A stretch of 64,000 nucleotides of DNA from Ruditapes philippinarum (lineage: Eukaryota). Shown here in pieces: positions 6,001 to 12,000 of the stretch; position 1 is the first letter of the stretch; the number at the start of each line of letters is the position of its first letter. The position numbers were made by a program. The stretch is taken from the NCBI RefSeq assembly GCF_026571515.1, contig NW_026861463.1, positions 434,001-498,000 on the forward strand. The letters run 5' to 3'.

Positions 6001-9000
6001 TTAAAAGTGTTTTAATTACCTTTACCATAAATATAGAGCCAGTCTAATATGAACATTCAAGCAAAGTTAACCCTAAAGTTGTTATTTATAGGAAACGAAG
6101 TTTTTCCATTCAGTTTAGTGTGAGAAATCATATTTAAGTACCTTTATGTAAAAATATATATCGTTGATTGATTCTTCATTAGAACCACCCTACAAAAGTA
6201 AATTTTAATTTACAATGAAGCTTTTTGTGTATTATAGAACTCTTAAATTTGAAAAATAAGATGCATATAAATTTATTGAAGCGAAAGTTAGTCGAACGAT
6301 GTAAACGTATGGCTTCTATAATTATTTGTGAAAACCTCATACTTAGCAAAGCAAAGTGATATATAGTAAGAATCAGTTTTTCTGTTTGTCCTTTCTTGTC
6401 TGAAGCCATGTAGGCGGTAATTTTCATCAATTTAATAATATATGGTATGAATAGTTGCTTGTACCAAAAATTTTTTTAAAGGATTTGATCAGTCCTCAAC
6501 ATTTATTGAAATTATTTAAAAAATATACTTAACATCAATTCAGAAGACGAGTGTTGCAAGCAAGGTCTGTCGCTCACAAATCTTAATCAGGCAGATCAAA
6601 ATTAAATACACATGCTAGTTGTTGCTGGTAAATTCCTCATTTACGCAATGGTTTTGCCACTAGCAGCTGTGCTAATATATTATACTAAGTGGATAATTTC
6701 TTAATGTAGTAAAGTATTATAAAGCAATTTTGTTAATGTAGTAAAGTATTAAAGAAATTTTGATTGTATAGTATCGGCATTTTGCTTCAAGAACACAAAG
6801 GAGGAGATGGAAGGTCAGAAAAATATATTTCCTGGGGACTAATTTTAGAGATCTGTTGAGGTCATTTTTTGTAAACTAAACAATATGGCAAAGGTAAAAA
6901 TAGATTTTTTTAGACTCCACTTCAAAATAAAGTTATTCAGTAAAATATGGGTAGACGGATTTTCCAAACTACACTCCAAAATAAAGTTATTCAGTAAAAT
7001 ATTGGTATATCGATTTTCCAGTTACCAAATCTAAACGACTTTATCAAGATATCATATACATAACTTAAAAAATTACAGTGTATTATATGGAAAATTTAAA
7101 TCTTTAATTGAAATGATTTAGTAATTTGTGTAATGACATAACATAATTTCCTATAAATGTTATTGATATTGAATTACTATTGGTCATTTTCTACTTTATT
7201 TACAATTATATTATTTATAGTATGTGTAAAAAAACAGCCTCATCTTTATTCCCTTACAGCTTCATCTTTATTCCCTTCATAGCGTTTATTAAGATGTGTC
7301 TGAGATCTTTTATGATTTCAAATAAATATCCACTGACAAGTTGCATATATTTTCATTCAGTGAAACAAACTCTGTTATTTTGTGTGTTCATACCGTACTA
7401 GGTCTTCATTGTTAACAAGATTTCAAGATTAAATACATCTTTATTTTTAGGAGGTGCAACCATCATTTTCAAATTCGAGGCGCGTCACAGTAAGTTGTAA
7501 AACATATCTTTTTCAAGATGCATTTCAAAAGCTGAAATTAAGGTACCAAGTATTGAGACAATTGACGATACCTTTTTCCGGATTGTATTTCCAAGATCAA
7601 GGCAAGAAACAAGCTAGGTCACAATAAACACGCAATCTAAATATCGCTGAATAATTTCTCGTATGTGAGGCCATCATCTTAATCACTTGCAACTCTCTAC
7701 AGTTATTTGATCTAAGACCAATAATGAGTCTGTAATATGTGCATAAAATTTTCTTTAAAATGTGTATGGGTTTTAGATTTCATTTAAGCTTTGGGAAAAT
7801 ATGAAAATAATTGAGTCACACACTTGCTAAATAGCATGCACAAATGTAAGTCTAAGTTTAGTTCATGTGAATCACTGTTCAAGTACGGCTTCTATTTGTT
7901 TTAGACTCCACTTTAAAATAAAGGTATTCTGTAAAATATGAGTAAATGGATTTTCCAGTTACCAAATCTAAACTACTTTATCAAGATATCATATACTTAA
8001 CTTCCTATAGATGTTATTAATATTGAATTACTATTTGTCATTTTCTATTTTATTTACAATAAATTATTTATAGTATGTGTAAAAACAGCCGTACCTTTAT
8101 TCCCTTACAGCTTCATCTTTATTCCCTTCATAGCGTTGATTAAGATGTGGTTGAATTCTTTTATGATTTCAAATAAATATCCACTGACATGTTGTATATA
8201 TTTTCATTCAGTGAAACAGACTCTGTTATTTTGTGTGTCCATATCGTACTAGGTCTTCATTGTTTACAAGATTTCAAGATTAATTACAACTTTATTTTCA
8301 GGAAGTGCAACCATCATTTTCAAGTTCGAGGTTCCTCTCAGTAAGTTTTAAAACATATCTTTTGAAAGATGCATTTCAAAAGCTGCAATTAAGGTACCAA
8401 TTACTGAGAAAACCTCTTTTCGAATTGTATTTCCAAGATCAAGGCAATAAACAAGCTAGGCGACAATAAACACGCAATCTAAATATCGCTGAAAAAATAT
8501 CAAATGTGAGACCGTCATCTAAATCACTTGTCAACTCTCTACAGTTATTTGATCTAAGACAAATAATGAGTCTGTAGTATGTGCCTAAATTTTTCTTTAA
8601 AATGTGTATGGGTTTTAGATTTCATTTAAGCTTTTTGAAAATATAAAAATGATTGTGTCACACACTTGACTAGATAGCATGCACAAATGTAAGTCTAAGT
8701 TTAGTTCATGTGAAACACAGTTCAAGTACGGCTTCTATTTGTTTTAGACTCCACTTTAAAATAAAGGTATTCAGTAAAATATGAGTAAATGGATTTTCAA
8801 AAGTTACTAAATCTAAACGACTTTATCAAAATATCGTATACATAACTTAAAAAATAACAGTGTATGGAAAAATTTTAATCTTTAATTGGAATGAATTAGT
8901 AATTTGTGTAATGACATAACATAATTTCCTATAGATGTTATTGATATTGAATTACTATTTTTCATTTTCTATTTTATTTACAATTAAATTATTTATAGTA

Positions 9001-12000
9001 TGCGTAAAAAACAGCCGTATCTTTATCCCCTTACAGCTTCATCTTTATTCCCTTTATAGCTTTGATTAAGATGTGGCTGAGATCTTTTATGATTTCAAAG
9101 AAATATCCACTGACAAGTTTCATATATTTTCATTCAGTGAAACAAACTCTGTTATTTTGTGTGTCCATACCGTACTTGGTCTTCATTGTTAACAAGATTT
9201 AAAGATTAATTACAACTTTATTTTTAGGAGGTGCAATCATTTTCAAATTCGAGGCGCGTCACAGTAAGTTGTAAAACATATCTTTTTCAAGATGTATTTC
9301 AAAAGCTGAAATTAAGGTACAAAGTAATTAGACAATTGACGATACCTCTTATCGAGTTGTATTTCCAAGATCAAGGCAAGAAACAAGCTATTATGACAAT
9401 TAACACGCAATCTAAATATCGCTGAAAAATTTCTCGTATGTGAGGCCATCATCTTTATCATTTGCAACTCTCTACAGTTATTTGATCTAAGACAAATAAT
9501 GAGTCTGTAATATGTGCATAAAATTTTCTTTAAAGTGTGTATGGGTTTTAGATTTCATTTAGGCTTTGGGAAAATATGAAAATAATTGAGTCACACACTT
9601 GCTAAATAGCATGCACAAATGTAAGTCTAAGTTTAGTTCATGTGAATCACTGTTCAAGTACGGCTTCTATTTGTTTTAGACTCCACTTTAAAATAAAGGT
9701 ATTCTGTAAAGTATGAGTAAATGGATTTTCCAGTTACCAAATCTAAACTACTTTATCAAGATATCATATACTTAACTTCCTATAGATGTTATTAATATTG
9801 AATTACTATTTGTCATTTTCTATTTTATTTACAATAAATTATTTATAGTATGTGTAAAAACAGCCGTACCTTTATTCCCTTACAGCTTCGTCTTTCTTCC
9901 CTTCATAGCGTTTATTAAGATGTGGTTGAATTCTTTTATGATTTCAAATAAATATCCGATGACATGTTGAATATACTTTCATTCAGTGAAACAAACTCTG
10001 TTATTTTGTGTGTCCATACCGTACTAGGTCTTCATTGTTTACAAGATTTCAAGATTATTTACAATTTTATTTTCAGGAGGTGCAACCGTCATTTTCAAGT
10101 TCGGAGCTCCTCACAGTAAGTTGTAAAACATATCTTTTTCAAGATGCATTTCCAAAGCTGAAATTAAGGTACCAAGTATTGAGACAATTGACGATACCCC
10201 TTTCCGAATTGTATTTCCAAGATCAAGGCAAGAAACAAGCTAGGCGAACAATAGACACGCAATCTTAACTAATATTGCTGTAAAATTTATCGTATGTTAG
10301 GCCGTAATCTTAATCACTTGCCAACCCTCTACAGTTTTTTGATCTATGACAAATAATGAGTCTGTAGTATGTGCATAAAATTTTCTTTAAAATGTGTAAT
10401 GGGTTTTAGATTTCATTTAAGCTTTGGGAAAATATGAAAATGATTGAGTCACACACTTGCTAAATAGCATGTACAAATATTAGTCTAAGCTTAGTTGATG
10501 TGAATCACTGTTCAAGTATGGTTTCTATTTGTAAATATTTGTGGAAACCATGTACTAAACAAATTGACACATGATATACGAATCTGTCCTTCTGTCTGTT
10601 CTTTCTGATTAGATAAAATGCCAAAATAAGCCATATAGGCGATACTGCTTGTAAGTAGTTTGATTTAATTAAGCGGATTATCGAATTATGTTGTTTGTAT
10701 AAAAATATGAACAGCGAGCAAGGTTCGGGTCCATAGCTCAAAATTCAAGATCAGGCACAAGGTCAAAATTTAATACACAGGCTAATTGTTGCTGTTAAAT
10801 TTTTCATGTACGCCCTATTGTGCTTCTTTTTTATTTTATTCATTTTTTATTCTACTAGCGACTGTGTTTTCAATATGTTGAAGCGAAAGATTTCTTAATA
10901 TAAAAAGGAATATGAAAAACAATGTAGTAAAGCAATCTTCATTGTTTATTATTTCATTTTGATTCTAGAGAAAACAGATGAAGAATATGAGGAAAGAAAA
11001 GATGAGAAGTAGTAAAAGTGATTCCTAAAAGAACGCCGAATACGACAAAATTGAAAATGTTCCAGGCTCGGTTTGATTTAGCCTGTTCCTGGACGGTACT
11101 GGAAAATGCAAGCTATTGTCCACGCCCCCTAGCACATGGCAATGATGAAATTGTGTTCATACGGCGTTTATCATGGAATTGTCAATTTGACACGTTAGAA
11201 AGCGGTGTGTGGTCCCCAATTAAAAATATGATTTAGAGAATATTTTATTGAGTTGTAAAGTCAAATGTTTAGAAACAAAGCATGATGTAGGAATGAATAA
11301 ATCCTGAAAAAAAAAACTAAATCAAAAATTCATAATAAAGTTTTTCAGTGCCATCAGTGGCACAGTATTGACAGCTGGATATTCTAGTTATCAAAATGCA
11401 AACGACTTTATCAAATAAGGCATGTTTATATATAACAAATTATTTATAGATATTTAGTATATATATGTAAATTCAAGTCTTTATTGGAAATAAAAGTGTT
11501 GATATAACAGTATTTCCAGCAGATGATAATGATATTGAAGTACTTTTGTTTAATGTTCTATTCTATTATCTTTATATCATTATGTTTAGTATACTTTATG
11601 TTTGTTTCAATAAATGTCCACAAAACCGTCTTCTCTGAAATTATAAAGGCTAGAGCTTAGATAGTTTGCATGACACATCATGTGGTAGATATCTAACAAG
11701 TTTCTTCAAATAATAACCCTTGGGTCAAAATTTTCCCCAAACAAGGGGAAAATGTGTTTTCCCTATATTTTATAGTAAATTCTTTAAAAAAAAACTTCCC
11801 TAAAGCTTTTAAGGTTAGAGCATAGATATTTGGCATGATAAATTACTCTACCAGGCTTGTTCAAATAATAGATTTGGGGTAAAAGTAGCCCTGTCCATGG
11901 AGACATGGGATTTCCATATGTGTATATGTAGCATTCTTTAAAATAAAATCTCTTTAAGAACTACAATGACTAAATCTTAGATATTTGGCATAAAACATTG

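What the first reader, a model, noticed from the sequence alone, without database searches (positions are those of the whole stretch)
6911..10532. Tandem-repeat-generated array of variant in-frame micro-exons in a TRIM-like gene
Seen: each of four ~0.9 kb units carries a 36-39 nt segment with a strong acceptor and GTAAGT donor, phase-compatible with the phase-0 donor at 5896. The only indel inside these segments is exactly 3 nt (unit 3), while the surrounding sequence has arbitrary indels. The peptides differ at their ends (SRRVT, SRFLS, SRRVT, SELLT). Units alternate A-B-A-B, so the dimer itself was duplicated. Inference: a copy-number-variable exon cassette that diversifies a Ser-rich tail by combinatorial or mutually exclusive splicing.
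Basis: partly seen in the sequence, partly recalled or inferred. Interest (0 to 1): 0.7.

Follow-up and report, generated by a model that had tools for sequence, protein, structure and literature searches.

The report
Four duplicated exon-like cassettes, splicing unproven
A 3.6-kb stretch behind the coiled-coil exon of a mollusc-type B-box gene is four tandem copies of one 0.9-kb unit, each with a small in-frame segment that looks like an exon, but the copies drift like neutral DNA and nothing here shows that they are spliced.

Summary
Four tandem units (6909-10532; 843-991 nt; 91-93.5% identical) alternate A-B-A-B. Each carries a 36-39 nt segment with a YAG acceptor behind a T-rich tract, an open frame in the phase left by the donor at 5896, and a GTAAGT donor.

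That combination occurs nowhere else on either strand of the 64 kb, and the segment is the GC maximum of every unit, so it is exon-like beyond chance.

Evidence for selection is weak:
- The segment varies more than the rest of the unit (9 of 36 against 15% of columns).
- pN/pS is about 1.6.
- Neutral drift keeps all four copies intact in about 17% of simulations.
- The 3-nt indel is a single event.

The host gene has two B-boxes and a helical exon. No RING, no C-terminal domain and no well-defined last exon were found, and it could end 15 nt past 5896.

A new lead: 30 nt at the 5896 donor are complementary to the stretch just upstream of each cassette acceptor, a docking/selector-like layout. 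It was found post hoc.

My verdict is a tandem exon-cassette duplication that is probably splice-competent and evolving neutrally. Regulated diversification is not supported. No transcript or eukaryotic genome collection was available.

The parts
2565..2872 (+). Exon A of the host gene: ATG at 2565, two B-box zinc fingers, donor AG|GTAATA (phase 2)
   Evidence: Pfam zf-B_box E 1.3e-08, 35.3 bits against a cut-off of 24.1, 2 stretches. PDB B-box chains of TIF1-beta 1.1e-4, TRIM25, TRIM29, XNF7 and PML. Sequence read.
5290..5896 (+). Exon B: 202 codons, helical or coiled-coil region, ending at the phase-0 donor GAG|GTAAAT. The frame reads on for 4 codons to a stop at 5909-5911.
   Evidence: Open frame. 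No Pfam family above cut-off. The single-sequence AlphaFold2 model is all helices, mean pLDDT 50.8. Atlas look-alikes are mollusc clusters, and two lower-ranked ones carry zf-B_box.
5893..5922 (+). Docking-like stretch over the exon B donor, complementary to the stretch upstream of each cassette acceptor
   Evidence: Duplex energies are -16.9, -16.5, -25.1 and -21.1 kcal/mol. It ranks 2 of 280 flank windows. 12 of 5399 other windows and 4 of 1000 shuffles do as well. Against 111 decoy acceptor zones, 4, 4, 0 and 1 do as well.
6296..6908 (+). Left flank F_L, an older diverged copy of the right flank F_R. It contains a weak acceptor-like site (AAG|) at 6793/6794.
   Evidence: Local alignment of 6320-7223 with 10533-11592 scores 236 against a maximum of 70 in 30 shuffles. 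The block 6564-6646 matches 10728-10813 at 77.9%.
6909..7899 (+). Unit U1 (type A, 991 nt; carries its own 54-nt internal duplication at 6914-7020)
7900..8742 (+). Unit U2 (type B, 843 nt; lacks 83 nt, plus a 9-nt deletion of its own)
8743..9674 (+). Unit U3 (type A, 932 nt)
9675..10532 (+). Unit U4 (type B, 858 nt)
7451..7489 (+). Cassette 1, 39 nt, TAG|GA ... ACA|GTAAGT, GC 0.49
8302..8340 (+). Cassette 2, 39 nt, CAG|GA ... TCA|GTAAGT, GC 0.44
9228..9263 (+). Cassette 3, 36 nt (3-nt deletion), TAG|GA ... ACA|GTAAGT, GC 0.47
10077..10115 (+). Cassette 4, 39 nt, CAG|GA ... ACA|GTAAGT, GC 0.51
7391..7441 (+). Selector-like stretch of U1, ending 10 nt before the acceptor. The homologous stretches are 8242-8268 (U2), 9168-9218 (U3) and 10017-10063 (U4).
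   Evidence: RNAduplex targets; inverted repeats I6 and I17
10533..11377 (+). Right flank F_R, holding the candidate last exon 10969-11028 (TAG|AG, 19 codons plus stop) among several possible acceptors
11378..11592 (+). Diverged partial copy of the 5' third of the unit (68% identity to 7012-7223), marking an older [flank + unit] duplication

Best explanation
A 0.85-0.99 kb stretch lies behind the coiled-coil exon of a mollusc-type B-box/coiled-coil gene, and two successive tandem duplications copied it: one unit became A+B, then AB became ABAB. This multiplied a single exon-like cassette fourfold. The cassette has a YAG acceptor behind a T-rich tract, 36-39 nt open in the phase left by the donor at 5896, and a consensus GTAAGT donor. 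It is also the GC maximum of its unit.

I take the cassette to be splice-competent. At least some copies probably enter the mRNA by ordinary exon definition, each adding 12-13 residues in frame to a short, unstructured tail. The differences between copies are neutral drift since the duplications, not a selected diversifying device.

Shown: the repeat structure and order of duplication, the splice signals, the frame, the composition, and the absence of purifying selection on the peptide.

Inferred: that the donor at 5896 is used, that the cassettes are spliced, and which downstream exon closes the reading frame.
For: - Repeat anatomy and A-B-A-B history: identities 0.909-0.935, 19/0/2 informative columns, and singletons of 26/27/25/28 per copy, which is clock-like.
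- The full exon-like pattern is found 4 of 4 times in the array and 0 times elsewhere on both strands of the 64 kb. Only 7 splice-like pairs of any length lie outside the array.
- In U1, U3 and U4, every window with GC at least that of the cassette lies within 5 nt of the cassette start. In U2, 10 of the 12 listed positions (13 windows counted) do. Cassette GC is 0.44-0.51 against 0.296 for the array and 0.35-0.39 for exons A and B.
- Donor positions +1 to +6 are invariant (0 of 6 columns vary).
- All four copies keep AG, GT, an open frame and a length that is a multiple of three. This happens in 16.8% of neutral simulations, or 9.2% if GTAAGT must stay exact.
- Drift rather than selection: 9 of 36 cassette columns vary against 15.0% elsewhere (P = 0.079). 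Pooled pN/pS is 1.62 in the cassette and 1.38 in the 42 codons after it.
- No TE or protein family matched the unit ORFs above a Pfam cut-off. 0 of 8 ORFs did; the only hit was DUF3087 at E 0.052 and 13.4 bits against a cut-off of 23.4, on a left-flank ORF. The two further unit ORFs also failed, with one hit at E 0.018 below cut-off.
- No Rfam family matched.
Against: - No transcript data could be consulted, so splicing is not shown.
- The peptide is under no detectable constraint, which is unusual for a long-used coding exon.
- The cassette's frame stays open for 55-65 codons past the GTAAGT, so the donor may not be the real end of whatever was once coding.
- The 3' end of the gene is undefined. 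Exon B reads to a stop 15 nt beyond 5896, with ATTAAA at 6000-6005 (sequence). Several downstream acceptors give 13-19-codon tails with no homology.
- No C-terminal domain or RING was found, so this may be a truncated gene copy.
- All four copies share one origin, so each 'fourfold' feature is a single event.
- The pattern was picked out by a reader looking for such things.
Confidence: 0.5

Rival explanations
1. Pseudo-exons. The array is a plain tandem duplication of noncoding DNA, either intronic or 3' of a gene that ends at exon B. The exon-like segment is a chance or decayed feature inherited by all four copies and is never spliced.
For: - Variability is at least as high as in the flanks and pN/pS is at or above 1.
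- Neutral retention of all four copies is not rare, at 0.17.
- There is a stop 15 nt after 5896 and ATTAAA at 6000-6005.
- No defined downstream exon exists.
- The region is a nest of older duplications and diverged repeats.
- The gene lacks a RING and a C-terminal domain.
Against: - The combined pattern is absent from the other ~120 kb of strand searched.
- It coincides with the GC maximum of each unit.
- It is in the phase and on the strand of the upstream donor.
- The docking-like complementarity is centred on that donor.
Confidence: 0.3
2. Regulated choice. The cassettes are alternative exons whose choice is steered by competing RNA pairing. One docking site at the exon B donor pairs with one of four selector sequences just upstream of a cassette, as in left-docker clusters of mutually exclusive exons. 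This gives tails of different sequence or length.
For: - A bipartite helix joins 5893-5922 to a stretch 10-60 nt upstream of every cassette acceptor, with up to 12+10 bp in U4 and energies from -16.5 to -25.1 kcal/mol.
- 12 of 5399 windows elsewhere and 4 of 1000 shuffles do as well. Of 111 decoy acceptor zones, 0-4 do as well. The real acceptors of exon B and of the candidate last exon score only -8.1 and -6.4.
- The layout is what the model of PMC6071210 predicts when one arm of an intronic stem is duplicated along with the exon (introduction and discussion read).
Against: - It was found post hoc among 52 inverted-repeat pairs.
- About 0.6 equally good windows are expected among the 280 flank windows searched, and another flank window scored better against whole units.
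- The four selectors are one inherited sequence, so they give no covariation.
- The helix covers the GT of the donor itself, which would more likely hinder U1 binding.
- All cassette lengths are multiples of three and the introns are 812-887 nt, so nothing forces exclusivity.
- There is no sign of selection on the peptides.
Confidence: 0.08
3. Alternative last exons. Each unit offers a 55-65-codon terminal exon that starts at the cassette acceptor and reads through the GTAAGT to a stop. The 39-nt 'micro-exon' is then only its first part.
For: - The frame from the acceptor is open for 58, 55, 65 and 63 codons. Only 3.2% of 5937 AG-following frames in the window reach 58 codons.
- The only indels in that stretch are 3 and 9 nt, and 1-nt indels begin just after it.
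- In U1 and U2 the stop lies inside an AATAAA (7623-7628 and 8465-8470; sequence).
Against: - pN/pS is 1.38 over these codons.
- There was no Pfam hit for 0 of 3 such ORFs.
- The AATAAA is lost in U3 and U4.
- The ORF ends differ between copies.
- A perfect GTAAGT inside a terminal exon would be expected to be used.
Confidence: 0.07
4. Assembly artefact. The A-B doubling is two haplotypes or mis-joined reads laid in tandem, so the true locus has one A-B dimer.
For: None from the sequence, beyond the fact that tandem repeats are prone to this. No reads were available.
Against: - U1-U3 and U2-U4 differ by 6.5% and 7.1% in substitutions and by private indels of 54, 9, 4 and 3 nt.
- Singletons are equal on all four copies.
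- No unique flank is duplicated with the dimer.
- No N run lies in or beside the array.
Confidence: 0.04

Closest known systems
Tandem exon duplication arrays and clusters of mutually exclusive exons (Dscam1 exon 6 with an upstream docking site; 14-3-3zeta, Mhc, MRP1, srp), as reviewed in PMC6071210 (introduction and discussion read) and PMC9013439 (abstract read)
   Same: - Homologous exon-like segments of equal length and phase, duplicated together with their flanking intron.
- Introns within the cluster resemble each other.
- The first intron can pair with each internal intron just upstream of a variant.
   Different: - No expression evidence exists.
- The units are young (91-93.5% identical) and the 'exons' are no better conserved than the introns.
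- The peptide belongs to no domain.
- The candidate docking site overlaps the 5' splice site.
- Lengths that are multiples of three, and long introns, leave multiple inclusion possible.
[quoted passage not shown]
   Same: Kilobase-sized tandem units each contribute an in-frame coding module, so unit number could set protein length.
   Different: - KIV-2 units encode a folded kringle domain, are all included, and are known to vary in number.
- Here the module is 12-13 residues with no known fold, and neither inclusion nor copy-number variation has been tested.
Intronic pseudo-exons and young exonised segments (general knowledge, recalled; no paper read)
   Same: A short segment with good splice signals inside noncoding DNA, evolving at the neutral rate.
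   Different: The signals here are unusually complete for this contig (0 other instances). The segment is also a sharp GC peak in phase with the upstream donor.
B-box/TRIM-type genes expanded in bivalve molluscs (PMC8382680: one table passage read, listing a B-box-type zinc-finger orthogroup among expanded families)
   Same: Two B-boxes followed by a long helical region, with mollusc look-alikes in the protein atlas.
   Different: No RING and no C-terminal substrate-binding domain were found in the window, so the tripartite motif is incomplete.

Membership tests
Tandem exon duplication array | Two or more adjacent homologous segments of like length, each with its own acceptor and donor | tested here: met
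   Four segments of 39, 39, 36 and 39 nt, each with YAG and GTAAGT, lie at homologous positions in units that are 91-93.5% identical.
Tandem exon duplication array | Same intron phase on both sides, compatible with the neighbouring constitutive exon | tested here: met
   The donor at 5896 is phase 0. All cassette lengths are multiples of three and open in phase 0.
Tandem exon duplication array | The segments are real exons, present in mRNA | not testable with these tools
   No transcript or eukaryotic genome collection was open.
Tandem exon duplication array | Exon parts better conserved than the intron parts of the duplicated units | tested here: not met
   9 of 36 cassette columns vary against 15.0% elsewhere. 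68 of 803 sliding windows are as variable or more. Pooled pN/pS is 1.62.
Mutually exclusive exon cluster with docking and selector RNA pairing | One docking site complementary to a selector next to each variant | tested here: inconclusive
   5893-5922 pairs with the stretch 10-60 nt upstream of all four acceptors (-16.5 to -25.1 kcal/mol). It ranks 2 of 280 flank windows; 12 of 5399 windows, 4 of 1000 shuffles and 0-4 of 111 decoys do as well. It was found post hoc, and the four selectors are one inherited sequence.
Mutually exclusive exon cluster with docking and selector RNA pairing | One and only one variant in each mRNA | not testable with these tools
   No transcripts. Steric, U2/U12 and NMD routes to exclusivity do not apply: the introns are 812-887 nt, all sites are GT-AG, and lengths are multiples of three (criteria from PMC6071210, introduction).
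Mutually exclusive exon cluster with docking and selector RNA pairing | Docking and selector sequences conserved between species | not testable with these tools
   No related genome could be searched.
TRIM (tripartite motif) protein | N-terminal RING finger | tested here: not met
   Exon A starts at an ATG 2 nt after an acceptor-like site and matches only B-box-type models. 0 of 10 ORFs of 50 aa or more, upstream and in intron 1, match any Pfam family. A short or split RING exon could have been missed.
TRIM (tripartite motif) protein | One or two B-boxes | tested here: met
   zf-B_box scores 35.3 bits against a cut-off of 24.1, in two stretches. ANCHR-like_BBOX scores 25.4 bits, below its cut-off of 27. 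PDB B-box chains match at 1.1e-4 to 0.025.
TRIM (tripartite motif) protein | Coiled coil after the B-boxes | tested here: inconclusive
   The model of exon B has helices 3-47, 53-88, 94-143 and 152-190, but mean pLDDT is 50.8 from a single sequence. Only sub-threshold Pfam matches to helical families were found.
Protein-coding VNTR with whole exons per unit (LPA KIV-2 type) | Unit number differs between alleles | not testable with these tools
   Only one assembly window is available, with no reads.

The most novel reading that the evidence does not exclude
The locus is a docking/selector system caught soon after its birth. A stem joined the start of the intron after exon B to the stretch upstream of a small cassette exon. 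Its distal arm was copied four times by a recent duplication, so one docking site now competes for four selectors. This sets which 12-13-residue modules, and how many, end a B-box protein of an immune-type family expanded in molluscs. It would be a natural example, outside arthropods, of the duplication model for the origin of competing RNA structures (PMC6071210).
Probability: 0.08. Interest if true: 0.7.

Novelty: new member of a known kind. Interest (0 to 1): 0.35.

Why it matters
If the cassettes are spliced, this is a young, datable case of exon amplification by tandem duplication. There were two steps, about 1% and then about 3% divergence per lineage. The copies are still neutral, which is the raw material stage that older clusters of mutually exclusive exons no longer show. 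The complementarity to the upstream donor would then allow a direct test of how docking and selector pairs arise. If they are not spliced, the locus is a caution for scans: complete splice signals, a matching frame, a 3-nt indel and fourfold 'conservation' can all be inherited from one ancestral unit and do not show function.

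Tried and rejected
- TRF with its period limit of 500 did not report the 0.9-kb array. The array was established by alignment instead.
- Units as a dispersed mobile element: blastn of U1 finds only the four units plus one 68% partial copy at 11378-11592. The cassette neighbourhood has only its four copies. No Pfam family above cut-off matched the 8 ORFs of the units and the two flanks (0 of 8) or the two unit ORFs. There was no Rfam match at E up to 1 in 5000-13500 and no tRNA in the window, although the flank has a B-box-like motif by eye. 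A 64-kb window cannot exclude a dispersed family.
- Extending the older duplication upstream of 6296, or downstream of 11592, into cassette-bearing sequence: alignment scores of 60 and 48 do not exceed shuffles at 60 and 53. Whether the older copy ever had a cassette is therefore unknown.
- ORF 11006-11236 as a decayed C-terminal domain (76 codons, GC 0.41): no Pfam, PDB or atlas match.
- The cassette as a copy of the end of exon B or of the candidate last exon: no direct similarity.
- Selection tests lack power. They rest on 9 substitution events in 36-39 nt.
- A spliced gene model was never joined.
Supplementary files of the papers were not consulted.

Full report
**What the window is.** It is AT-rich, with GC of 0.26-0.40 per 2 kb. 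Protein-atlas look-alikes of the gene in question are mollusc clusters. I do not take it for human. Three N runs lie far from the finding (29630-29882, 30809-31147, 58725-58861) and were left alone.

**The observation.**
- A unit-start motif recurs at 6909, 7900, 8743 and 9675. Aligning the four units gives lengths of 991, 843, 932 and 858 nt.
- Ungapped identities are 0.935 (U1-U3), 0.929 (U2-U4) and 0.909-0.913 for the four mixed pairs.
- TRF missed the array because its longest period is 500. It reported only a 54-nt doubling inside U1 and 22-nt doublets.
- Of 838 columns filled in all four units, 129 vary. Nineteen support U1+U3 against U2+U4, none support U1+U2, and 2 support U1+U4. Singletons are 26, 27, 25 and 28. 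An 83-nt indel separates types A and B.
- So one unit became A and B, which diverged by about 1% per lineage. The AB dimer then doubled, and each copy has since gained about 3%.

**The exon-like segments.**
- They lie at 7451-7489, 8302-8340, 9228-9263 and 10077-10115. Each has YAG|GA behind 9-10 of 12 pyrimidines, an open phase-0 frame and NCA|GTAAGT.
- The donor at 5896 is phase 0.
- The combined pattern occurs four times, all in the array, and nowhere else on either strand. The pattern is YAG, at least 9 of 12 pyrimidines, 21-90 nt, a multiple of three, open frame, and GTRAGT.
- Without the frame and length conditions, 7 pairs exist outside the array.
- The cassettes are also the GC peak of each unit, at 0.44-0.51 against 0.296. 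In U1, U3 and U4, every window with GC at least that of the cassette lies within 5 nt of the cassette start.
- Because the four copies share one origin, this amounts to one unusual ancestral segment, not four.

**Is there selection?**
- The cassette is more variable than the rest of the unit, not less. 9 of 36 columns vary against 15.0% (binomial P = 0.079), and 68 of 803 sliding windows are as variable.
- The 9 events are 2 synonymous and 7 nonsynonymous, which is the neutral expectation. Pooled pN/pS is 1.62 in the cassette and 1.38 in the 42 codons beyond the donor.
- The two A-type cassettes have no substitutions since the dimer doubled, and the two B-type cassettes have three each. Neither departs convincingly from the unit average.
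- Donor positions +1 to +6 never vary (0 of 6), but 5 of 20 acceptor-side columns do.
- A simulation on the observed tree, using the observed substitution and indel rates, keeps AG, GT, an open frame and a multiple-of-three length in all four copies in 16.8% of 20,000 runs. With exact GTAAGT in all four the figure is 9.2%.
- The 3-nt indel is one event. Outside the cassettes, 2 of 15 indel events are also multiples of three.
- The features read as signs of selection are therefore at most weak evidence.

**The host gene.**
- Exon A (2565-2872) has two B-boxes (Pfam zf-B_box 1.3e-08). Its best solved relatives are B-boxes of TIF1-beta, TRIM25, TRIM29, XNF7 and PML.
- Exon B (5290-5896) has no family above cut-off. 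A low-confidence single-sequence model makes it all helical (pLDDT 50.8).
- No RING was found: 0 of 10 upstream and intron ORFs match any Pfam family. No C-terminal domain was found either.
- ORF 11006-11236 is GC-rich but matches nothing.
- The frame of exon B reads on to a stop at 5909-5911, with ATTAAA at 6000-6005, so the gene might end there.
- Downstream of the array, several acceptors give short tails. None has support beyond its signals.
- Exons were searched one by one.

**Wider anatomy.**
- The left flank and the start of U1 (6320-7223) are colinear with the right flank and the sequence beyond it (10533-11592). The alignment scores 236 against 70 for the best of 30 shuffles.
- There is a 68% partial unit copy at 11378-11592.
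- The array therefore sits inside an older [flank + unit] duplication. That older copy is cut off before the position where a cassette would lie, so the age of the cassette cannot be read from it.

**A new lead.**
- An inverted-repeat scan (52 pairs) showed that the 30 nt around the exon B donor (5893-5922) are complementary to the stretch 10-60 nt upstream of every cassette acceptor. The helix is bipartite, up to 12+10 bp, with energies from -16.5 to -25.1 kcal/mol.
- This window ranks 2 of 280 flank windows against whole units. It is matched by 12 of 5399 windows elsewhere and by 4 of 1000 shuffles against the 70-nt pre-acceptor zones.
- It pairs with the four real zones better than with 107-111 of 111 decoy acceptor zones.
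- The layout is that of a left docking site with selectors. It is what the duplication model of PMC6071210 predicts (introduction and discussion read).
- It was found after the fact, it is one inherited sequence, and it covers the 5' splice site itself. I rate it a lead, not a finding.

**A second oddity.**
- The frame from each acceptor stays open for 58, 55, 65 and 63 codons, through the GTAAGT. Only 3.2% of 5937 such frames in the window reach 58 codons.
- The only indels in it are 3 and 9 nt.
- With pN/pS of 1.38 and no family match, I keep 'alternative last exons' as a minor rival.

**Verdict.**
- The structure is real and the cassette is exon-like beyond chance. Its use in mRNA is unproven, and its variation looks neutral.
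- I put 0.5 on splice-competent, drifting duplicated cassettes. I put 0.3 on never-spliced pseudo-exons, 0.08 on regulated choice by RNA pairing, 0.07 on alternative terminal exons, and 0.04 on an assembly artefact.
- Tandem exon duplication is a known kind (PMC9013439, abstract; PMC6071210), as are exon-bearing coding VNTRs (PMC11462820, search listing only). At best this is a new member of that kind.

**Unchecked.**
- No eukaryotic genome or transcript collection was available.
- No supplements were consulted.

Noticed in passing
window 13758-15336 (+): An ORF of 421 codons (14071-15336) matches DUF3504 (2.3e-29) and the phage-integrase family (5.3e-10), and matches QRICH1 below its cut-off. 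A 123-codon ORF sits just upstream. It looks like a tyrosine-recombinase (Crypton-type, recalled label) mobile element or a gene derived from one, about 2.5 kb downstream of the candidate end of the B-box gene.
   Followed up: partly
window 11640-12052: Three diverged head-to-tail copies of a unit of about 150-160 nt, 68-76% identical. TRF missed them. They interrupt the older partial unit copy at 11592.
   Followed up: partly
window 11006-11236 (+): A 76-codon open frame with GC 0.41 in a 0.25-0.30 background, directly after the candidate last exon and in another frame. It has no Pfam, PDB or atlas match. Its origin is unexplained.
   Followed up: partly
window 28141-28932 (-) and 28001-30000: Two long minus-strand frames rich in His, Thr and Tyr (133 and 129 codons) lie in a stretch with GC skew 0.277 and AT skew -0.211. 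This is probably a TG-rich tandem repeat rather than a gene. It abuts a masked N run.
   Followed up: no
window 25854-27455 (+): A single 533-codon open frame carries a GESAGG-type motif, which I recall as typical of type-B carboxylesterases and cholinesterases. It was not run against any library.
   Followed up: no
window 19280-23045 (+): A chain of open frames carries metallophosphatase-like motifs (GDNFY, GNHD, GHDH; recalled as typical of purple or tartrate-resistant acid phosphatases). It is probably a multi-exon gene. Not tested.
   Followed up: no
window 31150-32686 (+) and 42001-42285 (-): There are fragments of small ARF/ARL-type GTPases by eye. One has WDIGGQ and NKQD motifs next to the masked run 30809-31147, and another copy lies on the opposite strand. 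Not tested.
   Followed up: no
window 6914-7020; 7234-7277; 9011-9054: There are small internal repeats inside the units. One is a 54-nt doubling private to U1. The others are a 22-nt doublet reported in U1 and U3, whose sequence also aligns in U2 and U4. They show that the region keeps duplicating at several scales.
   Followed up: yes
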